Assembly (NCBI RefSeq): GCF_009914755.1 | Contig: NC_060947.1 | Length of the DNA stretch: 64,000 nt | Strand: one strand, 5' to 3' | Source of the DNA: the human T2T-CHM13v2.0 reference genome, Homo sapiens | In this document: positions 44,760 to 57,260 of the stretch, piece after piece | Numbering within the stretch: position 1 is the first letter of the stretch | How the letters are laid out: the number at the start of each line of letters is the position of its first letter | Translations under genes and position numbers: made by a program | The notes under the pieces: generated by a model | Told to the model about the DNA's origin: nothing | Database searches by the model: none | The model's input: the letters and a program-made list of their open reading frames with translations, nothing else

Positions 44760-45105
44760 ATCACCTCATCCAAGCCGTCATGAACTTTTGCCTGAATTAT
44801 AGCATTGGCTTCCTAACCGGTGTTCCTGTTTCCACCTTTGCTTCCTTTCCTCCAAATCTCTTCTCAAAATGCACACATAGTAATCTTGCTAAGCAATGAT
44901 TCTCAGCCGATAACACACAGATTAGAATAACTTGAGGAAGTTTTAAAAATACCTTATTCCAAAAACTTGAATCAGACCCTTTGGTGTAACATTTTACTTC
45001 ATTGCTCATACCCTTTGGTATCTTTCTTTCTCACTCAGAGTAAAAGACAACTCCTTAGAAGGGTCTGTATAATCAGGTGGTTGCCTGTTTTTCTGACTTA
45101 ATCCC
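44760..45105 (+). mobile_element. L2 (left part; target of the HERV-H composite)
   Basis: tcactcagagtaaaagacaactcctt...; continues after 56785 as ctcctactttcctccgttctcactgtg. Confidence 0.65.
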
Positions 45106-45506
45106 TGTCAGACCTCTGAGCCCAAGCTAAGCCATCATATCCCCTGTGACATGCACATACACATCCAGATGGCCGGTGCCTGCCTTAACTGATGACATTC
45201 CACCACAAAAGAAATGAAAATGGCCTGTTCCTGCCTTAACTGATGACATTGTCTTGTGAAATTCCTTCTCCTGGCTCAAAAGCTCCCCTACTGAGCACCT
45301 TGTGACCCCCACTCTGCCCGCCAGAGAAAAACCCCCCTTTGACTGTAATTTTCCTTTATCTACCCAAATCCTATAAAATGGCCCCACCCTTATCTCCCTT
45401 CGTTGACTCTCTTTTTGGACTCAGCCCACCTGCACCCAGGTGATTAAAAGCTTTATTGCTCACACAAAGCCTGTTTGGTGGTCTCTTCACACGGACACGC
45501 ATGAGA
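45106..45506 (+). promoter_or_regulatory. LTR7 5' LTR of provirus A
   Basis: tgtcagacctctgagcccaagctaagcc start; TATA (tataaaa 45372-45378); ACAAAAGA at 45205-45212. Confidence 0.93.
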
Positions 45507-45508
45507 TT

Positions 45509-45526
45509 TGGTGCCGTGACTCAGAT
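45509..45526 (+). other. Primer-binding site, tRNA-His
   Basis: tggtgccgtgactcagat is complementary to the tRNA-His 3' end (one mismatch). Confidence 0.93.
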
Positions 45527-46109
45527 CAGGGGACCTCCCTTGGGAGATCAATCCCCTGTCCTCCTGCTCTTTGCTCTGTGAGAAAGATCCACCTACGACC
45601 TCAGGTCCTCAGACCGACCAACCCAAGAAACATCTCACCAATTTCAAATCCGGTAAGCGGCTTCTTTTTACTCTCTTCTCCAACCTCCCTCACTATCCCT
45701 CAACCTCTTTCTCCTTTCAATCTTGGCACCACACTTCAATCTCTCCATTCTCTTAATTTCAATTCCTTTCATTTTCTGGTAGAGACAAAGGAGACATGTT
45801 TTATCTGTGGACCCAAAACTCCAGCGCTGGTCACAGACTGGGAAGGCAGCCTTCCCTTGGTGTTTAGTCACTGCAGGGACACCTCTCTGATTATTCACCC
45901 ACGTTTCAGAGGTGTCAGACCACGCAGGGATGCCTGCCATGGTCCTTCACCCTTAGCAGCAAGTCCTGCTTTTCTAGGGGAAGGGGCAAGTACCCCAACC
46001 CCTTCTCTCCGTGTCTCTACCCCTTCTCTGCTTTTCTGGGGGAGGGGTAAGAACCCCCAACCCCTTCTCCTTCACCCTTAGTGGTAAGTCCCGCTTTTCT
46101 AGGGGGCAA

Positions 46110-46400
46110 GAATCCCTAATCCCTTATTTCCATGCCCCGACCTCTTATCTCTGCACCCCAATCCCTTATTTCCACACCCCGACCTCTTATCTCTGCACCC
46201 CAATCACTTATTTCCGTGCCCTGACCTCTTATCTCTGTGCCCTATCCCTTATTTCTGCACCCCAACCTCTTATCTCTGTGCCCAAATCCCTTATTTCCAT
46301 GCCCGGACCTCTTATCTCTGTGCCCCCATCCCTTATTTCCGTGCGCCAATCTCTTATGTCTGCACCCCAACACCTTATTTCTGTGCCCCAACCCCTTTCC
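46110..46400. repeat. Tandem repeat in the HERV-H leader (alternating cccttatttcc / cctcttatctctg units)
   Basis: Direct reading; a shorter counterpart lies in provirus B at 55310-55470. Confidence 0.85.
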
Positions 46401-47344
46401 CGCTTTTCTGGAGGGTAAGAACCCCCGAATCCCTTTCCTCCATGTCTCTACTCTCTTTTCTCTGGGCTTGCCTCCTTCACTATGGGCAACCTTCCACCCT
46501 CCATTCTTCCTTCTTCTCCCTTAGCCTGTGTTCTTAAGAACTTAAAACCTCTTCAACTCTCACCTGACCTAAAATCTAAGCATCTTATTTTCTTCTGCAA
46601 TGCTACTTGACCACAATACAAACTCGACAGTAGTTCCAAATAGCCAGAAAATGGCACTTTCAATTTTTCCATCCTGCAAGACCTAAATAATTCTTGTCGT
46701 AAAATAGGCAAACGGTTTGAGGTGCCTGATGTCCAGGCATTCTTTTACACATCGGTCCCTCCCTAGTCTCTGTGCCCAGTGCAACTCGTCCCAAATCTTC
46801 CTTCTTTCCCTTCTGCCTGTCCCCTCATTCCCAACCCCAACCATCACTGAGTCTTTCTAATCTTCCTTTTCTACAGAACCATCTGACCTCTCCCCTCCTC
46901 CCCAGGCTGCTCCTCGCCAGGCCGAGCTAGGTCCCAATTCTTCCTCAGCCTCTGCTCCTCCACCCTATAATCTTTTTATCACCTTCCCTCCTCACACACA
47001 GTCTGGTTTACAGTTTCATTCTGTGACTAGCCCTCTCCCACCTGCCCAGCAATTTCCTCTTAAAAAGGTGGCTGAAGCTAAAGGCATAGTCAAGGTTAAA
47101 TGCTCCTTTTTCTTTATCTGACCTCTCCCAAATCAGTTAGCATTTAGGCTCTTTCATCAAATATGAAAAACCCAGCCCAGTTCATGGCTCGTTCGGCAGC
47201 AACCCTGAGACGCTTTACAGCCCTAGACCCTAAAAATTCAAAAGGCCGTCTTATTCTCAATATACATTTTATTACCCAATCTGCTCCTGACATTAAATAA
47301 AACTCCAAAAATTAAATTCCAGCCCTCAAACCCCACAGCAGGAC

Positions 47345-49950
47345 TTAATTAACCTCACCTTCGAGGTGTGCAATAATAGAGTAGAGGCAGCCAAGTAGCG
47401 ACGTATTTCTGAGTTGCAATTCCTTGCCTCCACTGTGAGACAAACCCCAGCCACAGCTCCAGCACACAAGAACTCCAAACGCCTGAATCACAGCTGTCAG
47501 GGGTTCCTCCAGAACCTCCTTTCCCAGGAACTTGCTATAAGTACCTGAAATCTGGCCACTAGGCCAAGGAATGCCCAAAGCCCAAGATTCCTCCTAAGCC
47601 GTATCCCATACGTGTAGGACCCCACTGAAAATCAGACTGTTCAACTCACCAGGCCACTGGAACTCTGGCCCAAGGCTCTCTGACTGACTCCTTCCCAGAT
47701 CTTCTTGGCTTACCGGCTGAAGACTGACACTGCCCGATCACCTCGGAAGCCCCCAGACCATCACGGATGCCGAGCTTTGAGTAAATCTCACAGTAGAAAG
47801 TAAGTCCGTCCCCTTCTTAATCCATACGGAGGCTACCCACCCCACATTACCTTCTTTTCAAGGGCCTGTTCCTCTTGCTTCCATAACTGTTGTGGGTATT
47901 GACAGCCAGGTTTCTAAACCTCTTAAAACTCCCCAACTCTGGTGCCAACTTAGATAATACTCTTTTAAGCACTCCTTTTTAGTTATCCCCACCTGCCCAG
48001 TTCCCTTATTAGGCTGAGACACTTTAATTAAATTATCTGCTTCCCTGACTATTCCTAGGCTACAGCCACACCTCATTGCCACCTTTTCCCCCAGTTCAAA
48101 GCCTCCTTCACATCCTCCCCTTGTATCTCCCCACCTTAACCCACAAATATAAGACACCTCTACTCCCTCCTTAGCGACTGATCATGCACCCCTTACCATC
48201 CCATTAAAACCAAATCACTCTTACCCAGCTCAATGCCAAGATCCCATCCCACAGCATGCTTTGAAAGGATTAAAGCCTGTTATCACTCGCCTGTTACAGC
48301 ATGGCCTTTTAAAGCCTATAAACTCTTCTTACCATTCCCCCATTTTACCTGTCCTAAAACCAGACAAGGCTTACAGGTTAGTTCACGATCAGCACCTTAT
48401 CAACCAAATTGTTTTGCCTATCCACCCCATGGTGCCAAATCCATATACTCTCCTATCCTCAATACCTCCCTCTACAACCCATTATTCTGTTCTGGGTCTC
48501 AAACATGCCTTCTTTACTATTTGGACCCTTCATCCCAGCCTCTCTTTGCTTTCACTTAGACTGACCCTGACACCCATTAGGCTCAGCAAATTACCTGGGC
48601 TGTACTGCTGCAAGCCTTCACAGACAGCCCCCATTACTTCAGTCAAGCCCAAATTTCATCCCCATCTGTTACCTATCTCGGCATAATTCTCATAAAAACA
48701 CACGTGCTCTCCCAGCTGATCATGTCCAATTAATCTCCCAAACCTCAATCCCTTACAAAACAACAACGCCTTTCCTTCCTAGGCATGGTTAGTGTGGTCA
48801 GAATTCTTACACAAGAGCCAGGACCACACCCTGTAGCCTTTCTGTCCAAACAACTTGACCTTACTGTTTTAGCCTAGCCCTCATGTCTCCATGCAGCGGC
48901 TGCCGCTGTTTTAATACTTTTAGAGGCCCTAAAAAATCACAAACTATGCTCAACTGACTCTCTACATTTCTCATAACTTCCAAAATCTATTTTCTTCCTC
49001 ATATCTGACGCATATACTTTCTGCTCCCCGGCTCCTTCAGCTGTACTCACTCTTTGTTAAGTCCCACAATTACCATTGTTCCTGGCCCAGACTTCAATCT
49101 GACCTCCCACATTATTCTGGGTGCCACACCTGACCCTCATGACGGTATCTCTCTGATCCACCTGACATTCACCCCATTTCCCCATATTTCCTTCTTTCCT
49201 GTTCCTCACCCTGATCACGCTTGATTTATTGATGGCGGTTCCACCAGGCCTAATCACCACACACCAGCAAAGGCTGGTTATGCTATACTACAAGCCACTA
49301 GCCCGCCTCTTAGAACCTCTCATTTCCTTTCCATTGTGGAAATCTATCCTCAAGGAAATAACTTCTCAGTGTTCCATCTGCTATTCTACTACTCCTCAGG
49401 AATTATTCAGGCCCCCTCCCTTCCCTACACATCAAGCTTGAGGATTTGCCCCCACCCAGGACTGGCAAATTAGCTTTACTCAACATGCCCTGAGTCAGAT
49501 AACTAAAATACCTCTTAGTCTAGGTAGACACTTTCACTGGATAGGTAGAGGCCTTTCCTACAGGGTCTGAGAAGGCCACCGCAGTCATTTCTTCCCTTCT
49601 GTCAGACATAATTCCTCAGTTTAGCCTTCCCACCTCTATACAGTCTGATAACAGACCAGCCTTTATTAGTCAAATCAGCCAAGCAGTTTTTCAGGCTCTT
49701 AGTATTCAGTGAAACCTTTATATCCCTTACGGTCCTCTGTCTTCAAGAAACGTACAACAGACTAATGGTCTTTTAAAAACACACCTCACCAAGCTCAGCC
49801 ACCAACGTAAAAAGGACTGGATAATACTTTTACCACTTTCCCTTCTCAGAAGTCAGACCTGTCCTCAGAATGCTACAAGGTACAGCCCATTTGAGCTCCT
49901 GTATAGACGCTCCTTTTTATTAGGCCCCAGTCTCATTCCAGACACCAGAC
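47345..49950 (+). pseudogene. Provirus A gag-NC/pro/pol remnants, multiply disrupted
   Basis: ORF 48261-48686 LLKPINSSYHSPILPVLKPDKAYRLVHD...YSVLGLKHAFF (RT N-terminus); integrase-like gtagacactttcactgga. Confidence 0.85.
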
Positions 49951-52900
49951 TAACTTAGACTGTGCCCCAAAAAAACTTGTCATCCCTACTATCTTCTGTC
50001 TAGTCATACTCCTATTCACCATTCTCAACTACTCATACATGCCCTGCTCTTGTTTACACTGCCAGTTTACACTGTTTCTCCAAGCCGTCACAGCTGATAT
50101 CTCCTGGTGCTATCCCCAAACTGCCACTCTTAACTCTTGAAGTAAATAAATAATCTTTGCTGGCAGGACTATGCTGAATCTCCTTAGGCACTCTCTAATC
50201 AGATGTCCTGGGTCCTCCCAATTCTTAGATCTTTTATACCTGTTTTTCTCCTTCTCTTATTCCATTTACTTTTTCAATTCATACAAAACTGTATCCAGGC
50301 CATTACCAATAATTCTAAATGACAAATGTTTCTTCTAACAACCCCACAATATCACCCCTTACCAGAAAATCTTCCTTCAGCTTAATCTCTCCCACTCTAG
50401 GTTCCCACGCCGCCCCTAATCCCACTCGAAGGAGCCCTGAGAAACATCGCCCATTATCTCTCCATACCACCCCCCAAAATTTTCACTGTCCCAACACTTT
50501 ACCACTATTTCATTTTATTTTTCTTATTAATATAAGAAGACAGGAATGTCAGGCCTCTGAGCCCAAGCTAAGCCATCATATCCCCTGTGACCTGCACATA
50601 CACATCCAGATGGCAGGTTCCTCCCTTAACTGATGACATTCCACCACAAAAGAAGTGAAAATGGCCTGTTCCTGCCTTAACTGATGACATTGTCTCGTGG
50701 AATTCCTTCTCCTGGCTCATTCTGGCTCAAAAGCTCCCCCACTGAGTACCTTGTGACCCCCACTCCTGCCCGCCAGAGAACAACCCCCCTTTTCACCAAA
50801 TTTCATGCACATCCCTGTGAAGAGACCACCAAACAGGCTTTGTGTGAGCAATAAAGCTGTTTATTTAACCTGGGTGCAGGTGGGCTGAGTCCGAAAAGAG
50901 AGTCAGCGAAGGGAGATGGGGTGGGGCCGTTTTATAGGATTTGGGTAGGTAAAGGAAGAAGGGGGGTTGTTCTCTGGCAGGAGTGGGGGTCACAAGGTAC
51001 TCAGTGAGGGAGCTTTTGAGCCAGGATGAGCCAGGAGAAGGAATTTCACAAGACAATGTCATCAGTTAAGGCAGGAACAGGCCATTTTCACTTCTTTTGT
51101 GGTGGAATGTCATCAGTTAAGGCAGGCACCGGCCATCTGGATGTGTATCTGCAGGTCACAGGGGATATGATGGCTTAGCTTGGGCTCAGAGGCCTGACAT
51201 TCCTGTCTTCTTATATTAATAAGAAAAATAAAACGAAATAGTGGTAAAGTGTTGAGACGGTGAAAATGTTTTGGGGGTGGTATGGAGAGATAATGGGCGA
51301 TGTTTCTCAGGGCTGCTTGGAGCAGGATTAGGGGCGTCGTGGGAACCTAGAGTGGGAGAGATTAAGCTGAAGGAAGATTTTCTGGTAAGGGGTGATATTG
51401 TGGGGTTGTTAGAAGAAACATTTGTCATTCAGAATTACTGGTGATGGCCTGGATACAGTTTTGTATGAATTGAGAAACTAAACGGAATAAGAGAAGGAGA
51501 AAAACAGGTATTAAAGGACTAAGAATTGGGAGGACCCAGGACATCTGATTAGAGAGTGCCTAAGGAGATTCAGCATAGTCCTGCCAGCAAAGATTATTTA
51601 TTTACTTCAAGAGTTAAGAGTGGCAGTTTGGGGATAGCACCAGGAGATATCAGCTGTGACGGCTTGGAGAAACAGTGTAAACCGGCAGAGTAAAAAAGAG
51701 CAGGGCATGTATGATTAGTTGAGAATGGTGAATAGAAGTATGACTAGACAGAAGATAGTAGGGATGACAAGTTTTTTTGGGGCACAGTCTAAGTTAGTCT
51801 GGTGTCTGGAATGAGACTGGGGCCTAATAAAAAGGAGCGTCTATACAGGAGCTCAAATGGGCTGTACCTTGTAGCATTCTGAGGACAGGTCTGACTTCTG
51901 AGAAGGGAAAGTGGTAAAAGTATTGTCCAGTCCTTTCTAAGTTGGTGGCTGAGATTGGTGAGGTGTGTTTTTAAAAGACCTTTAGTCCGTTGTACTTTTC
52001 TTGAAGACAGAGGACTGTAAGGGATATAAAGGTTTCACTGAATACTAAGAGCCTGAAAAACTGCTTGGCTGATTTGACTAATAAAGGCTGGTCTGTTATC
52101 AGACTGTATAGAGGTGGGAAGGCTGAACTGAGGAATTATGTCTGACAGACGAGAAGAAATGACTGGTGACCATCTCAGACCCTGTAGGAAAGGCCTCTAC
52201 CTATCCAGTGAAAGTGTCTACCTAGACTAAGAGGTATTTTAGTTATCTGACTCAGGGCATGTTGAGTAAAGCTAATTTGCCAGTCCTGGGTGGGGGCAAA
52301 TCCTCGAGCTTGATGTGTAGGGAAGGGAGGGGGCCTGAATAATTCCTGAGGAGTAGTAGAATAGCAGATGGAACACTGAGAAGTTATTTCCTTGAGGATA
52401 GATTTCCACGATGGAAAGAAAATGAGAGGTTCTAAGAGGCGGGCTAGTGGCTTGTAGTATAGCATAGCCTACCTTTGCTGGTGTGTGGCGATTAGGTCCG
52501 GTGGAACCGCCATCAATAAATCAAGCGTGATCAGGGTGAGGAACAGGAAAGAAGGAAATATGGGGGAATGGGGTGAATGTCAGGTGGATCAGAGAGATAC
52601 CGTCATGAGGGTCAGGTGTGGTATCAGAAATAATGTGGGAGGCCGGATTGAAGTCTGGGCCAGGAACAATGGTAATTGTGGGACTTAACAAAGAGTGAGT
52701 ACAGCTGAAGGAGCCGGGGAGCAGAAAGTATATGCATCAGGTATGAGGAAGAAAATAGATTTTGGAAGTTATGAGAAATGTAGAGAGTGAGTTGAGCATA
52801 GTTTGTGATTTTGAGGGCCTCTAAAAATATTAGGGTGGCAGCAGCCACTGCATGGAGACATGAGGGCTAGGCTAAAACAGTAAGGTCAAGTTGTTTGGAC

Positions 52901-53184
52901 AGAAAGGCTACAGGGTGCAGTCCTGGCTCTTGTGTAAGAATTCTGACCGCACTAACCATGCCTACGAAGCAAAGGCATTGTTGTTTTGTAAGGGATTGAG
53001 GTTTGGGAGATTAATTGGACATGATCAGCAGGGAAAGCACGTGTGTTTTTATGAGAATTATGCCAAGATAGGTAACAGATGAGGATGAAATTTGGGCTTG
53101 ACTGAAGTAACGGGGGCTGTCTGTGAAGCCTTGTGGCAGTACAGCCCAGGTAATTTGTTGAGCCTAATGGGTGTCAGGGTCAGT

Positions 53185-53982
53185 CTAAGTGAAAGCAAAG
53201 AGAGGCTGGGACAAGGGGTGCAGGGGAATAGTGGAAAAAGCATCTTTAAGATCAAGCACGGAATAGTGAGTTGTGGAGGAAGGTATTGAGGACAAAAGAG
53301 TGTACGGGTTTGGCACCACAGGATGGATAGGCAAAACAATTTGGTTGATAAGGCGCAGATCCTGAACTAATCTGTAAGACTTGTCTGGTTTTTGGACAGG
53401 TAAAATGGGGGAATTGTACGGAGAGTTTATAGGTTTTAGAAGCCCATGCTGTAGCATGCAAGTGATAACAGGCTTTAATCCTTTCAAAGCGTGCTGTGGG
53501 ATGGGATATTGGCGCTGAGCGGGGTAAGGGTGATTAAGTTTTAATGGGATGGTAATGGGCATGTGATTGGTTGCCAGGGAAGGAGTAGAGATGTCCCATA
53601 CTTGTGGGTTAAGGTGGGGGGATATGAGAGGAAGAGGCGAAGGGGGCTTTGGACTGGGAAGAAGGGCGGCAATGAGACGTGGCTGTAGTCCAGGAATAGT
53701 CAGGGAAGCAGATAATTTGGTTAAAATATCTCGGCCTAATAAGGGAACTGGGCAGGTGGGGATGACTAAAAAAAAGTGCATAAAAGAGTGTTGTCCAAGT
53801 TCGCACCAGAGTGGGGGAGTTTTCAGCGGTTTAGAAGCCTGGCCGTCAATAGCCACAACAGTTATGGAGGCAAGGGAAACAGGCCCTTGAAAAGAAGGTA
53901 ATGTGGAGTGGGTAGCCTCCATATTGACTAGGGGGACGGACTTACCTTCCACTGTGAGAGTTACCTGAAGCTCGGCATCCAT
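53185..53982 (-). pseudogene. Provirus B protease plus RT N-terminus (265-aa open frame, catalytically defective)
   Basis: LVNMEATHSTL (degenerate DTGA), LLGRDIL, YRLVQDLRLIN, LDLKDAF; frame ends before any YXDD. Confidence 0.88.
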
Positions 53983-54122
53983 GATGGTCTACAGGGCTTC
54001 CAAGGTGATCGGGCAGCATCAGTCTTCAGCCGTTAATCCGAGAAGGCGTCAGTCAGAGAGCCTTGGGCCAGAGTTCCAGGGGCTCTAGGAGTGGCTGCCA
54101 GGTGAGTTGAACAGTCTGATTT

Positions 54123-54359
54123 TCAGTGGGGTCCCGCACAGATGCTACACGGCTTAGGAGGAATCCTGGGCTGCAGGCATTCCTTGGCCTGGTGGTCAGA
54201 TTTCTGGCACTTGTAGCAAGCTCCTGGGGGAGGAGGTTCTGGAGGAATGTCTGGCCGCTGCGGTTCAGGCATTTGGAAGTTCTTGTGTGCTGGAGATGTG
54301 GCTGGGGTTTGTCTCACAGTGGAGGCAAGGAATTGCAACTTTTTTCTATTATTGTACAC
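54123..54359 (-). pseudogene. Provirus B gag nucleocapsid remnant
   Basis: CYKCQKSDHQAKEC CCHC zinc knuckle plus a partial second knuckle CSICAGPH. Confidence 0.85.
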
Positions 54360-56478
54360 CTTGAAGGCGAGGTTAATTACATCCTGTTGTGGGGTTTGAG
54401 GGCTGGAATTTAATTTTTGGAGTTTTATTTAATGTCAGTAGCAGATTGGGTAATAAAATGTATTTTGAGAATAAGATGGCCTTTTGACCTTTTAGGGTCC
54501 AGGGCTGTAAAGCATCTCAGGGTTGCTGCCAAACGAGTCATGAACTGGGCTGGATTTTTATATTTGATGAAAAAGAGCCTAAACGCTATCTGATTTGGGA
54601 TAAAGAAAAAGGAGCATTAACCTTGACTATGCCTTTAGCTCCAGTCACCTTTTTAAGAGGAAATTGCTGAGCAGGTGGGGGAGGGCTAGTCATGGAACGA
54701 AACTGTAAGCCGCACCGGGTGTGAGGAGGGGAGGTGATAAAAGGATTATAGGGTGGAGGAGCAGAGGCTGAGGAAGAATCGGGACCTAGCTCAGCCTGGC
54801 CAGGAGGGGAGAGGTCAGATAGGTCTGTAGAAAAGGAAGATTAGAAAGACTCAGTGATGCTTGGGGTTGGGACTGAGGGGACAGGCAGAAGGGAAAGAAG
54901 GAAGATTTGGGATGAGTTGCATTGGGCACAGAGACTAGGAAGGGACCGATGTGTAAAAGAATGCCTGGACGTCAGGCACCTCAGACTGTTTGCCTGTTTT
55001 ATGACAAGAATTATTTAGGTCTTGCAGGATGGAAAAATTGAAAGCGCCATTTTCTGGCTATTTGGAACTACTGTCAAATTTGTATTGGGGTCAAGCAGCA
55101 TTGCAGAAGAAAATAAGATGCTTAGATTTTAGGTCAGGTGAGAGTTGAAGAGGTTTTAAGTTCTTAAGAACAGAGGCTAAGGGAGACGAAGGAGGAATGG
55201 AAGGTGGAAGGTTGCCCATAGTGAAGGAGGCAAGCCCAGAGAAAAGAGAGAGTAGAGACATGCAGGGAAGGGGTTCGGGGGTTCTTACCCTCCAGAAAAG
55301 TGGGAAAGGGGTCAGGGCACAGAGATACGAAGTCAGGGCGCATAAACAAGGGATTGGGGTGCAGAGATATGAGGTTGGGATGCAGAAATAAGGGATCGGG
55401 GCACAGAGATATAAGAGGTTGGGGCATGGAAATAAGGGATCGGGGTGCAGAGATATAAGGGGTTGGGGTAATTTCCCCTCCCCCAGAAAAGCGGGACTTG
55501 CTGCTAAGGGTGAAGGAGAAGGGGTTGGGGGTTTCTTGCCCCCCAGAAAGGCAGAGAAGGGGTAGAGACACGGAGAGAAGGGGTTGGGGTACTTGCCTCT
55601 TCCCCAGAAAAGCGGGACTTGCCGCTAAGGGTAAAGGACCAAGGTAGGCATCCCTGCATGGTCTGACACCTCTGAAACGTGGGTGAATAATCAGAGAGGT
55701 GTCCTGCAATGATTAAACACCAAGGGAAGTCTGCCTTCCCTAGTCCGTGACCGGCGCCGGAGTTTTGGGTCCACAGATAAAATGTGTCTCCTTTGTCTCT
55801 ACCAGAAAATGAAAGGAATTGAAATTAAAAGAAGGGAGAAATTGAAGTGTGGCACCAAGATTGAAAGGAGAAAGAGGTTGAGGGATAGTGAGGGAGGTTG
55901 GAGAAGAGAGTAAAAAGAGGCCACTTACCGGATTTGAAATTGGTGAGATGTTTCTTGGGCTGGTCAGTCTGAGGACCTGAGGTCGTAGGTGGATCTTTCT
56001 CACAGAGCAAAGAGCAGGAGGACAGGGGATTGATGTTCCCAAGGGAGGTCCCCTGATCCGAGTTACGGCATCAAATTTCATGTGCGCCTGTGTGAAGAGA
56101 CCACCAAACAGGCTTTGTGTGAGCAATAAAACTGTTTATTTCACCTGGGTGCAGGTGGGCTGAGTCTGAAAAGAGAGTCAGCGAAGGGAGATGGGGTGGG
56201 GCCATTTTATAGGATTTGGGTAGGTAAAGGAAGAAGGGGGGTTGTTCTCTGGTAGGCAGGAGTGGGGGTCACAAGGTACTCAGTGAGGGAGCTTTTGAGC
56301 CAGGTTGAGCCAGGAGTAGGAATTTCACAAGACAATGTCATCAGTTAAGGCAGGAACAGGCCATTTTCACTTCTTTTGTGGTGGAATGTCATCAGTTAAG
56401 GCAGGCACTGGCCATCTGGATGTGTATGTGCAGGTCACAGGGGATATGATGACTTAGCTTGGGCTCAGAGGCCTGACA

Positions 56479-56780
56479 AAGGGAGATAAGGGTGGGGCCA
56501 TTTTATAGGATTTGGGTAGATAAAGGAAAATTACAGTCAAAGGGGGGTTCTCTGGTGGGCAGAGTGGGGGTCACAAGGTGCTCAGTAGGGGAGCTTTTGA
56601 GCCAGGATGAGCCAGGAGAAGGAATTTCACAAGACAATTTCATCAGTTAAGGCAGGAAGAGGCCATTTTCACTTCTCTTGTGGTGGAATGTCATCAGTTA
56701 AGGCAGGAACCGGCCATCTGGATGTGTACATGCAGGTCACAGGGGATATGATGGCTTAGCTTGGGCTCAGAGGCCTGACA
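56479..56780 (-). mobile_element. Extra partial LTR7 (first 302 bp, U3 through TATA) directly upstream of the B 5' LTR
   Basis: Reverse complement tgtcaggcct...cctataaaatggccccacccttatctccctt, followed by TSD atccc at 56781-56785. Confidence 0.93.
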
Positions 56781-56785
56781 ATCCC

Positions 56786-57260
56786 CTCCTACTTTCCTCC
56801 GTTCTCACTGTGCCCAAAACACAGTGTTCTCTTTGCTCTTTTTTGAATGTGCCAAGTAAGCTTCTAATTTGGATACTTACTTTGCATTTATGTTCCTTCT
56901 GCTCACAGCACACTCTTCCAGACACATTCAACATTCACTTCCTTGCTTCCTACAGGTCTCTGCTTAGATGCAATTTCATCAGAAAGGCCTTCCATGCCTA
57001 GTCTATCTGGATTAACACGCTAGTCACTCTCTATTTCTCTACCATGCTTAATTTTTTTATGCACTATCACTACCCGATGTTACATTTTACATCAATTTGC
57101 TACTATTTCCCTCCACTGGAATGTAAGATCTATGAAGTCAGGAACTTTGTCTTGTTCATAACTATATCCTTAACTCCTAGAGCTGTATCTGGCACATAAT
57201 AGACACTCAATAGATATTTGCTGCTGGTTGATTGAGTGAATGCATGAATGGGTGAATCTG
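56786..57260 (+). mobile_element. L2 (right part, 3' end)
   Basis: aggtctctgcttagatgc...ctggaatgtaagatctatgaagtcagg...tggcacataatagacactcaata...tgaatg. Confidence 0.78.

What the first reader, a model, noticed from the sequence alone, without database searches (positions are those of the whole stretch)
45101..56785. 11.7-kb tail-to-tail HERV-H dimer bounded by two U3 ends and one shared 5-bp TSD
Seen: the left edge is atccc|TGTCAG (LTR start, plus) and the right edge is CTGACA|atccc (LTR start, minus). ATCCC is a direct repeat, and removing the block restores a continuous L2-like sequence (ctgacttaatccc ctcctactttcc). Established: a normal provirus has one U3 end and one U5 end, and integrase leaves a short TSD. 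Homologous inversion between internal repeats cannot turn an outer U5 end into a U3 end. The arms differ by many substitutions and indels (A tcaccaggccactggaac vs B tcacctggcagccactcctagagcccctggaac), so this is not a recent fold-back copy. Inference: one concerted integration used the U3 ends of two different cDNAs, possibly the two genomes of a heterozygous virion, and host repair joined the inner ends. This would be a germline fossil of bimolecular U3-U3 integration.
Basis: partly seen in the sequence, partly recalled or inferred. Interest (0 to 1): 0.92.

Follow-up and report, generated by a model that had tools for sequence, protein, structure and literature searches.

The report
HERV-H inverted double provirus, U3 ends outward
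Two different HERV-H retrovirus copies lie tail to tail on the human X chromosome and appear to have been inserted in a single step through two "left-hand" viral ends, a rare fossil of reverse transcription and integration going wrong.

Summary
At 45106 and 56784 both outer edges are LTR starts (TGTCAG / CTGACA) flanked by a direct ATCCC repeat. This is the 5-bp duplication that ordinary HERV-H copies show (8 of 11 scorable reference loci perfect).

The block is more complex than "two proviruses". It has three parts:
- **Arm A (+):** its 3' LTR is cut at about position 245.
- **Arm B (-):** complete, but its 3' LTR is followed by TT plus TGGTG. That is the unprocessed end dinucleotide plus the first 5 nt of the primer-binding site, a mark of an unfinished cDNA end.
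- **An extra U3-only LTR piece (56479-56784):** it is joined exactly to the first base of arm B's 5' LTR.

The two arms belong to different HERV-H lineages in pro-pol (100/100 support) but are sisters in the 3' internal region. The two integrated U3 ends are the same LTR type, which differs from arm B's own LTR pair. Both inner joints are unique in the genome.

Best reading (about 0.72): a composite cDNA made from two co-packaged HERV-H genomes was inserted by integrase through two U3 ends. The orthologous empty site could not be checked. I rate it a new variant of known aberrant integration, of moderate to high interest.

The parts
45101..45105 (.). Left copy of the 5-bp target-site duplication ATCCC
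   Evidence: It has the same length as the duplications of the reference HERV-H loci.
45106..45506 (+). Arm A 5' LTR (A5), full length. Its U3 is 'type 1' (the 10-nt TTGACTGTAA is present, with TTTATCT and CCCTTATC). It also has a private 10-nt deletion.
45507..45526 (+). TT dinucleotide plus the 18-nt primer-binding site (TGGTGCCGTGACTCAGAT) of arm A
   Evidence: The same TT+TGGTGCC... follows the 5' LTR in 12 of 12 reference loci. Its assignment to tRNA-His is recalled.
45527..50533 (+). Arm A internal region, the deleted form of HERV-H. It is a mosaic. At 45492-46713 it is type 2 like arm B (5 of 5 sites). At 46973-48529 it is type 1 (76 of 84 sites). From 48750 onward it is the sister of arm B. 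It contains a 21-nt tandem repeat at 46077-46409.
50534..50546 (+). Polypurine tract of arm A (AAGAAGACAGGAA)
   Evidence: The same tract precedes the 3' LTRs of the reference loci.
50547..50793 (+). Arm A 3' LTR (A3), U3 positions 1 to about 245 only. The last 1-3 T residues (50791-50793) cannot be assigned.
   Evidence: It leans towards the arm B LTR type (83/71; 9 of 237 differences to B3 against 12-13 to the others).
50794..50800 (-). TT plus TGGTG on the minus strand. This is the unprocessed terminal dinucleotide and the first 5 nt of the primer-binding site, attached to the U5 end of arm B's 3' LTR.
   Evidence: None of the 11 scorable reference 3' LTRs is followed by this sequence; host DNA follows directly. 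The 30-mer across the joint is unique in the genome.
50801..51203 (-). Arm B 3' LTR (B3), full length, type 2
   Evidence: It pairs with B5i at 99/94, with 16 of 399 differences.
51204..51216 (-). Polypurine tract of arm B
51217..56055 (-). Arm B internal region, type 2 nearly throughout (75 of 84 sites in the middle block). The ORF at 53185-53982 (-) carries retroviral protease and the start of reverse transcriptase.
   Evidence: Pfam RVP scores 9.7e-06 and RVT_1 scores 2e-08, both above the curated cut-off.
56056..56075 (-). Primer-binding site plus TT of arm B (TGATGCCGTAACTCGGAT, decayed)
56076..56478 (-). Arm B 5' LTR (B5i), full length, type 2. Its first base (TGTCAGG) is joined directly to piece C.
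56479..56784 (-). Extra partial LTR 'C': LTR positions 1-306, type 1 like A5. It ends 29 nt after the first T of TATAAAA, about where U3 meets R. Its position 1 is the right-hand integrated end.
   Evidence: The joint 30-mer is unique in the genome. The U3/R position is inferred from the TATA box only.
56785..56789 (.). Right copy of the target-site duplication ATCCC

Best explanation
This is a composite HERV-H DNA made of at least three cDNA pieces: mosaic arm A, complete arm B, and a U3-only fragment C. The pieces derive from two different HERV-H lineages, most simply two RNAs packaged together. Integrase inserted the composite into the germline in one concerted event, using two U3 termini instead of one U3 and one U5 end. 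That event made the 5-bp ATCCC duplication.

The normal U5 ends were not available. Arm B's U5 end was buried under TT plus 5 nt copied from the tRNA primer. Arm A's 3' LTR was never finished.

Shown: the two precise U3 host junctions with a family-typical duplication, the three inner features, and the two lineages.

Inferred: that the inner joints arose from reverse-transcription intermediates before or during integration. The most economical scheme uses end-to-end template jumps by reverse transcriptase. Arm B's plus strand ran 5 nt into the tRNA and then copied a second plus-sense strand. A minus strand that had reached U3 position 1 then jumped onto a short PPT-primed U3 fragment. End joining of free cDNA ends would give the same product.
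For: 1. Both host junctions sit exactly at LTR position 1 with no extra dinucleotide, and are flanked by a direct 5-mer. Reference HERV-H loci have TGTCAGG...CATGAAA termini and 5-bp duplications: 8 perfect, 2 at 4 of 5, and 1 mismatched of 11 scorable.
2. The inner end of arm B reads GAAA+TT+TGGTG. TT+TGGTGCC follows the 5' LTR in 12 of 12 reference loci and follows none of the 11 scorable 3' LTRs. Chance of the 7-nt match is about 6e-5.
3. Experimental HIV-1 and MLV proviruses with exactly this defect are described. They keep the unprocessed dinucleotide plus 2-15 nt of primer-binding site at the 3' junction while the 5' junction is normal (PMC2797772, passages).
4. Piece C is joined exactly to the first base of B5i. 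Both joint 30-mers occur once in 3.1 Gb at up to 3 mismatches, with reversed-pattern controls at 0.
5. Two lineages are present. In 47450-48700 arm A sits with L028-L033 and arm B with L034-L039, at 100/100. The best non-self matches are 91% for arm A and 94% for arm B, at different loci, and neither arm is among the other's 40 scored hits.
6. The LTRs pair as at reverse transcription. B5i+B3 cluster at 99/94. A5-C differ at 10 of 292 (3.4%) and B5i-B3 at 16 of 399 (4.0%), against 5.5-6.9% for the cross pairs. Pooled, that is 26 of 691 against 83 of 1360, Fisher p=0.028; the cross pairs are not independent. Both LTR haplotypes exist at other loci.
7. Recombination between co-packaged HERVH RNAs is an accepted driver of the family's evolution (PMC8912925, passages).
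8. [quoted passage not shown]
Against: - No empty orthologous site could be examined, so the duplication rests on a 5 of 5 match (chance 1 in 1024) plus the precise termini.
- I found no in vivo case of integration through two U3 ends in print, so the prior is low.
- The scheme needs three joints.
- A3 does not behave as the partner of A5. It leans to the arm B type (83/71; it keeps the C in CACTCCTG that A5 and C lack). Arm A is therefore not a standard cDNA, unless the centre was later homogenised by arm-to-arm gene conversion.
- A5 and C are not resolved as sisters in the LTR tree; they sit in a polytomy.
- The reference loci were chosen as the nearest relatives of each arm in 47486-48665. 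The 'type' labels are therefore partly circular outside that region.
- In the 3' region all HERV-H copies are close (2-6%).
- The U3/R position of C's end is inferred only from the TATA box.
Confidence: 0.72

Rival explanations
1. Two separate complete cDNAs each gave their own U3 end to one intasome, and host repair then ligated the two free inner ends in the chromosome.
For: - The arms are of different lineage in pro-pol.
- Arm B's inner end has the TT+PBS tag typical of ends joined by host enzymes rather than by integrase (PMC2797772).
- Host polymerases can append viral DNA of either strand to a defective end (PMC5041404, Discussion read).
Against: - The right-hand integrated end is not arm B's LTR. 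It is an extra U3-only fragment of the A5 type, joined exactly to B5i position 1, so a third piece and a third joint are needed.
- Arm A's two LTRs are not alike.
- Sequence alone cannot tell joining after strand transfer from joining before it.
Confidence: 0.15
2. Rearrangement after integration. Two ordinary HERV-H insertions, close together or nested, were later reshaped by deletion or inversion, and the ATCCC match is a coincidence.
For: - HERV-H proviruses do recombine. Reference locus L031 has mismatched flanks and LTRs of two types.
- Five base pairs can match by chance (1 in 1024).
Against: - Inversion or deletion cannot place a precise U3 position 1 against host DNA on both sides.
- After a deletion, arm B's U5 end would abut host DNA, not TT+TGGTG.
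- The sequences flanking arm B are not a 5-bp duplication (CCAAA against AAGGG).
- No other HERV-H fragment lies in the 64-kb window.
Confidence: 0.06
3. Fold-back (palindromic) duplication of a single provirus, either as a hairpin cDNA or as chromosomal DNA. The differences between the arms would then come from later gene conversion by other HERV-H loci.
For: - The centre looks like a snap-back: about 245 nt of inverted U3 around a loop formed by the rest of the LTR.
- The arms are sisters in 48750-50546 (93/98) and weakly in 45510-46000 (67/48).
- A3 is closest to B3.
Against: - The flanks are direct, not inverted.
- A one-ended hairpin insertion would give no 5-bp duplication (inference).
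- A 1.6-kb block of arm A is of another deep clade (100/100; 76 of 84 sites).
- The left end has a single LTR where the right end has C plus B5i. Collapsing the left end would need a crossover in the last ~10 nt of U3.
Confidence: 0.05
4. Assembly artefact. A false inverted join of two HERV-H copies.
For: Palindromes are hard to assemble. No reads were available to me.
Against: - The arms differ by 7.46% with 32 indels.
- Both joints are specific sequences carrying retroviral signatures.
- The outer 5-mers match.
- RefSeq regulatory features supplied with the finding tile the centre symmetrically.
Confidence: 0.02

Closest known systems
Ordinary HERV-H (LTR7 / HERVH-int) provirus, deleted form of about 5.7 kb
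   Same: - LTR termini TGTCAGG...CATGAAA, followed by TT plus the primer-binding site, and a polypurine tract.
- Remnants of protease and reverse transcriptase.
- A 5-bp duplication.
- About 1170 related candidates in the genome. The LTR7 reporter sequence printed in PMC8912925 starts the same way.
   Different: - Two units lie tail to tail, with an extra U3 fragment.
- Both host junctions are U3 ends.
- One 3' LTR is truncated, and the other is followed by primer-binding-site nucleotides.
In vitro concerted ('two-donor') integration by retroviral integrases using two separate, often identical, LTR ends
   Same: Two like ends are joined to the two target strands with the virus-specific stagger. 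[quoted passage not shown] Symmetric intasome models are in PMC2615046 (passages). That assays use U3/U3 or U5/U5 donor pairs is recalled.
   Different: This case is in vivo and in the germline, with kilobase-long donors. The inner ends are joined into one continuous 11.7-kb insert.
Aberrant proviruses with one defective end (Sakurai et al. 2009, PMC2797772; Varadarajan et al. 2016, PMC5041404, and the ASLV work they cite)
   Same: A U5 end keeps its dinucleotide plus part of the primer-binding site and is not used by integrase. Viral DNA of either strand can be appended to such an end.
   Different: In those cases the defective end is joined to host DNA, with deletions, duplications or microhomology, and there is no proper duplication. 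Here the defective end is joined to other viral DNA and both host junctions are integrase-type.
Recombinant HERVH lineages formed by template switching between co-packaged RNAs (Carter et al. 2022, PMC8912925)
   Same: A mosaic of two lineages within one element, including a U3 of one type on a body of another.
   Different: Here both parental types sit side by side in a single insertion, joined by non-homologous as well as homologous joints.
Head-to-tail tandem proviruses sharing an LTR, and multimeric Ty1 cDNA arrays in yeast (recalled, not checked here)
   Same: More than one element copy lies in one insertion site.
   Different: Those are direct repeats, or arise by recombination or repair. 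None that I could find has two U3 ends bounded by one duplication.

Membership tests
HERV-H (LTR7/HERVH-int) | LTR begins TGTCAGG and ends CATGAAA | tested here: met
   A5, B3 and B5i are full length. A3 and C start correctly. The 12 reference loci agree. The LTR7 reporter sequences in PMC8912925 begin the same way.
HERV-H (LTR7/HERVH-int) | 5' LTR followed by TT and an 18-nt primer-binding site TGGTGCCGTGACTCGGAT (tRNA-His; the assignment is recalled) | tested here: met
   Arm A at 45507-45526 and arm B at 56075-56056. The same holds in 12 of 12 reference loci.
HERV-H (LTR7/HERVH-int) | Internal region homologous to the family, with retroviral pro-pol remnants | tested here: met
   1170 and 1178 first-look candidates; 40 scored each, with 39 non-self at 89-94% identity. 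RVP and RVT_1 score above the cut-off in arm B.
Canonical single provirus | One U3 end and one U5 end between the two copies of the duplication | tested here: not met
   Both outer ends are LTR position 1.
Canonical single provirus | The 5' and 3' LTRs of one unit are each other's closest relatives | tested here: inconclusive
   Met for arm B (99/94). For arm A, A3 leans to the arm B clade (83/71) and A5 is unresolved.
Integrase-catalysed concerted integration | Precise processed viral termini at both host junctions | tested here: met
   ATCCC|TGTCAG and CTGACA|ATCCC, with no extra dinucleotide.
Integrase-catalysed concerted integration | Target-site duplication of the family's length | tested here: met
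   5 of 5 here. Reference loci: 8 perfect, 2 at 4 of 5, and 1 mismatched of 11 scorable.
Integrase-catalysed concerted integration | Single copy of the target 5-mer in the empty allele | not testable with these tools
   Only the human assembly is held. No other primate genome was available.
Fold-back / palindromic duplication | Arms are each other's closest relatives along their whole length, and flanks are inverted | tested here: not met
   The arms fall in different clades at 100/100 in 47450-48700. The flanks are direct and unrelated.
One-ended integration with host-mediated joining of a defective end | A viral end retaining the dinucleotide and primer-binding-site nucleotides | tested here: met
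   GAAA+TT+TGGTG at 50794-50804. The analogue is in PMC2797772.
One-ended integration with host-mediated joining of a defective end | The defective end is joined to host DNA, with deletion or duplication and no regular duplication | tested here: not met
   The defective end is joined to viral U3 in inverted orientation. The host junctions are regular.

The most novel reading that the evidence does not exclude
The locus is the frozen product of one reverse-transcription complex that held two different HERVH RNAs. One plus strand ran 5 nt into the tRNA primer and then jumped end-to-end onto a second plus-sense strand. A finished minus strand jumped onto a short PPT-primed U3 fragment. The resulting 11.7-kb molecule had two identical U3 ends, and an intasome assembled on those two ends inserted it. 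If so, this is direct physical proof of three things: heterozygous co-packaging in HERVH, non-homologous template jumping in vivo, and in vivo competence of a U3/U3 intasome. The event may have been favoured because the HERV-H U5 terminus ends in AA rather than the canonical CA.
Probability: 0.35. Interest if true: 0.8.

Novelty: new variant of a known kind. Interest (0 to 1): 0.62.

Why it matters
Retroviral integrase is normally described as joining one U3 end and one U5 end of a single cDNA. Two like ends are used in test-tube assays, but I found no natural provirus showing it. This locus would be a germline example.

Its inner joints also preserve intermediates of reverse transcription that are otherwise seen only in cell-culture experiments: a tRNA-primer remnant, a U3-only plus-strand piece, and a mosaic arm. 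It holds both parental lineages of a HERVH recombination event side by side. That makes the long-assumed co-packaging of different HERVH RNAs directly visible.

It also gives a search image for other genomes: LTR elements with both outer ends U3 and a matched duplication.

In practical terms, it places four LTR7 promoter/enhancer copies in an 11.7-kb near-palindrome in a gene desert. RefSeq already marks enhancers and a silencer on those LTRs.

Tried and rejected
- **Continuity of the flanks through a paralogous ancient repeat:** the 200-nt left flank matched only itself in the genome. The flanks match nothing else in the window. The 'L2-like' label therefore stays unverified.
- **Nested normal integration of arm B into another LTR:** rejected. 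The 5-mers on its two sides differ (CCAAA against AAGGG), and the flanking LTR pieces face each other.
- **Simple tandem duplication as the origin of piece C:** rejected as the main reading. The repeat boundary falls exactly on LTR position 1, and C is of a different LTR type from the LTR it abuts.
- **A perfect palindrome at time zero, followed by collapse of a mirrored C+LTR on the left:** rejected as unlikely. A5 is type 1 up to about position 295, so the crossover would have to lie in the last ~10 nt of U3.
- **Using the low arm-to-arm divergence near the centre (1.7-4.7%) as proof of sisterhood:** weakened, because unrelated HERV-H copies are equally close there (2-6%). Only the tree (93/98) supports sisterhood.
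- **Literature searches for a prior description** found nothing relevant. Two papers opened on the way were irrelevant (PMC5826361; PMC12228294).
- **Pfam on 9 ORFs:** only one informative hit, in arm B.
- **A genome-wide scan for other blocks with two outward U3 ends:** not feasible with the pattern tool.

Full report
**1. What is there**

The window is chrX:136524001-136588000 of the T2T human assembly, which the genome tool holds as G000:C23. The left edge reads ttaATCCC|TGTCAGACC, with the LTR starting at 45106 on the + strand. The right edge reads GGCCTGACA|ATCCCctcc, with the LTR starting at 56784 on the - strand.

The repeat finder and a self-BLAST show one large inverted repeat. Arm A (45106-50794) pairs with arm B (56478-50955). 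LTR-like copies lie at both ends and, as a facing pair, in the middle. No other piece of this element family lies elsewhere in the 64-kb window, and the two flanks are unrelated to each other.

**2. Identity and normal anatomy of the family**

A 1.2-kb piece of either arm finds about 1170 candidate copies in the genome. Forty were scored per search; the 39 non-self hits are 89-94% identical.

I fetched 12 full-length relatives and read their ends:
- The LTRs run TGTCAGG...CATGAAA.
- The 5' LTR is followed by TT and TGGTGCCGTGACTCGGAT in 12 of 12 loci.
- The 3' LTR is preceded by AAGAAGACAGGAA and followed directly by host DNA in 11 of 11 scorable loci.
- The flanking 5-mers match perfectly in 8 loci, at 4 of 5 in 2, and not at all in 1 (L031). 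One locus (L038) is not scorable.

An LTR7 reporter sequence printed in Carter et al. 2022 starts with the same bases (PMC8912925, passages). An ORF in arm B carries retroviral protease and the start of reverse transcriptase. The block is therefore HERV-H in its common deleted form. The naming of the primer-binding site as tRNA-His is recalled.

**3.

Because the LTR termini are fixed by the reference loci, the two ATCCC copies cannot be slid. A chance match is 1 in 1024. The arms differ at 409 of 5479 aligned positions (7.46%) with 32 indel events. The 'L2-like' nature of the flank could not be tested.

**4.

(a) *Truncated 3' LTR in arm A.* It starts at 50547 and stops after about 245 nt, at 50790-50793.

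(b) *Primer-binding-site tag on arm B.* Arm B's 3' LTR (51203 down to 50801) is complete. On its own strand it continues GAAA-TT-TGGTG before meeting the inverted arm A. That is the dinucleotide integrase normally removes, plus the first five bases of the primer-binding site. A finished linear cDNA does not have primer-binding-site bases after its 3' LTR. A plus strand that has copied the start of the still-attached tRNA primer does (established model of reverse transcription, recalled). Sakurai et al. found just such HIV-1 and MLV proviruses: dinucleotide plus 2, 4, 11 or 15 nt of primer-binding site at the 3' junction, with a normal 5' junction (PMC2797772, passages).

(c) *Extra partial LTR at the right edge.* Piece C (56784 down to 56479) covers LTR positions 1-306 and is joined exactly to the first base of arm B's complete 5' LTR, B5i (56478 down to 56076). 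C ends 29 nt after the first T of TATAAAA, about where U3 should meet R. This is inferred from promoter geometry only.

The 30-mers across both joints occur once in the 3.1-Gb genome at up to 3 mismatches, with reversed controls at 0.

**5. Two lineages, and a mosaic**

Divergence along the arms is uneven:

| Arm A coordinates | Divergence from arm B |
|---|---|
| 45106-46000 | about 6% |
| 47486-48665 | 12-17% |
| 48966-50791 | 1.7-4.7% |

In the divergent stretch each arm has closer relatives elsewhere, and the other arm ranks 16th to 23rd of 23. Trees with 12 reference elements gave these results:

| Region | Relation of the arms | Support |
|---|---|---|
| 47450-48700 | A with L028-L033, B with L034-L039 | 100/100 |
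| 46600-47400 | not sisters | - |
| 48750-50546 | sisters | 93/98 |
| 45510-46000 | sisters, weakly | 67/48 |

I then used the 93 sites that separate the two reference groups:
- Arm A is type 2 at 5 of 5 sites in 45492-46713.
- Arm A is type 1 at 76 of 84 sites in 46973-48529.
- Arm B is type 2 at 75 of those 84 sites.

Two caveats apply. The reference loci were picked as the nearest relatives of each arm in that stretch, so the labels are partly circular outside it. In the 3' region all copies are close (2-6%).

**6. The LTRs**

Two haplotypes are present. Type 1 has the 10 nt TTGACTGTAA, TTTATCT, CCCTTATC and lacks a C in CACTCTG. It is seen in A5 and C, and elsewhere in L028, L029 and L031_3. 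Type 2 has the 10-nt gap, TTTACCT and CCCC-ATC. It is seen in B3 and B5i, and elsewhere in L036 and L031_5.

In the tree, B3+B5i cluster at 99/94. A3 joins them weakly (83/71). A5 and C lie outside, unresolved.

| LTR pair | Differences |
|---|---|
| A5-C | 10 of 292 (3.4%) |
| B5i-B3 | 16 of 399 (4.0%) |
| Cross-type pairs | 5.5-6.9% |
| Reference LTR pairs | 2.7-8.6% |
| A3 (trimmed) vs B3 | 9 of 237 |
| A3 (trimmed) vs the others | 12-13 |

Arm B therefore looks like a regular cDNA with twin LTRs. The two integrated ends, A5 and C, look like twins of each other. Arm A's two LTRs do not look like twins.

**7. Explanation**

Rearrangement of ordinary proviruses cannot put a precise U3 position 1 against host DNA on both sides, cannot leave primer-binding-site bases after a 3' LTR, and would not preserve a matched 5-mer.

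A fold-back copy of one provirus would have inverted flanks or no duplication, and arms that are sisters throughout.

The reading that fits all features is an integrase-made, two-end insertion that used two U3 termini of a composite HERV-H DNA. [quoted passage not shown]

The U5 ends were unusable. Arm B's was buried under 7 extra nucleotides, and arm A's 3' LTR was unfinished.

How the pieces were joined is inferred. One economical scheme uses only known properties of reverse transcriptase (recalled):
- Arm B's plus strand, having copied 5 nt of tRNA, added one base and jumped onto the 3' end of a second plus-sense strand that had reached U3 position ~245. It then copied that strand back to its U3 start.
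- The minus strand of arm B, having reached U3 position 1, jumped onto a short polypurine-tract-primed U3 fragment (C).

Joining of free cDNA ends by host enzymes, before or just after strand transfer, gives the same product. Varadarajan et al. describe host polymerases appending viral DNA of either strand to a defective end (PMC5041404, Discussion read).

The mosaic of arm A, and the two lineages side by side, fit two co-packaged RNAs with template switching. This mechanism is already proposed for HERVH evolution (PMC8912925).

Weak points:
- A3's lean towards the arm B type.
- The unresolved A5-C pairing.
- The possibility of later arm-to-arm gene conversion near the centre.
- The lack of an empty site.

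**8. Comparison with what is known, and novelty**

The block is a member of HERV-H. It fails the definition of a canonical provirus. It meets the sequence marks of concerted integration except for the identity of the ends. It shares the primer-binding-site-tagged end with experimentally produced aberrant proviruses, but not their irregular host junctions.

Five full-text searches found no description of this locus or of a natural provirus bounded by two U3 ends:
- HERV-H with tail-to-tail
- endogenous retrovirus, inverted, provirus, tail-to-tail, target site duplication
- U3-U3 with integration
- inverted dimer, provirus, retrotransposon, cDNA
- HERVH/HERV-H with palindrome or inverted terms

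The library holds only Creative-Commons PubMed Central papers and bioRxiv, so older subscription papers on aberrant proviruses were not searched.

I rate it a new variant of a known kind, namely aberrant retroviral integration. Interest is 0.62. The structure is striking and informative for retrovirologists, but it is a single locus and the decisive empty-site test is still to be done.

Noticed in passing
L028-L039; window 45500-45508 and 56074-56080: The HERV-H U5 terminus that abuts host DNA ends in ...CATGAAA, so the retained end is AA rather than the canonical CA. The U3 end has the canonical TG (CA on the other strand). A weaker U5 end might make integration through two U3 ends relatively easier in this family. 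This is speculation.
   Followed up: partly
L031 = G000:C11:94351700-94359500: This reference HERV-H has mismatched flanking 5-mers (aatac against gtgac). Its LTRs are of two different haplotypes (5' with the 10-nt gap, 3' without) and differ at 34 of 395 positions (8.6%). It is probably a product of recombination between two proviruses.
   Followed up: no
window 46077-46409 and 55306-55470: A 21-nt tandem repeat in the leader/gag region has different copy numbers in the two arms. Arm B lacks 39+19+39+21 nt relative to arm A.
   Followed up: no
window 44935-45483, 50387-51096, 51097-51804, 50635-50929: The RefSeq enhancer and silencer features supplied with the finding coincide with the arm A 5' LTR and with the facing pair of 3' LTRs at the centre. 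The regulatory marks are LTR7 copies.
   Followed up: no
window 50784-50793 and 56479-56486: Both truncated U3 pieces end, in their own sense, on a C-run followed by T's: A3 ends ...CCCCCCTTTT and C ends ...CTCCCTT. This may be a pause site for plus-strand synthesis or a coincidence (n=2).
   Followed up: no
window 45269 (A5) and 50988-50991 region (B3): Private indels have arisen since insertion. A5 has lost 10 nt between the CTGGCTCA direct repeats, and B3 has lost 4 nt in CACTCCTGCC.
   Followed up: no
L034 and L039 (3' internal region): These two reference elements carry about 500 and 300 extra nucleotides in the region that matches 48750-50546 (lengths 2302 and 2111 against about 1795).
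   Followed up: no
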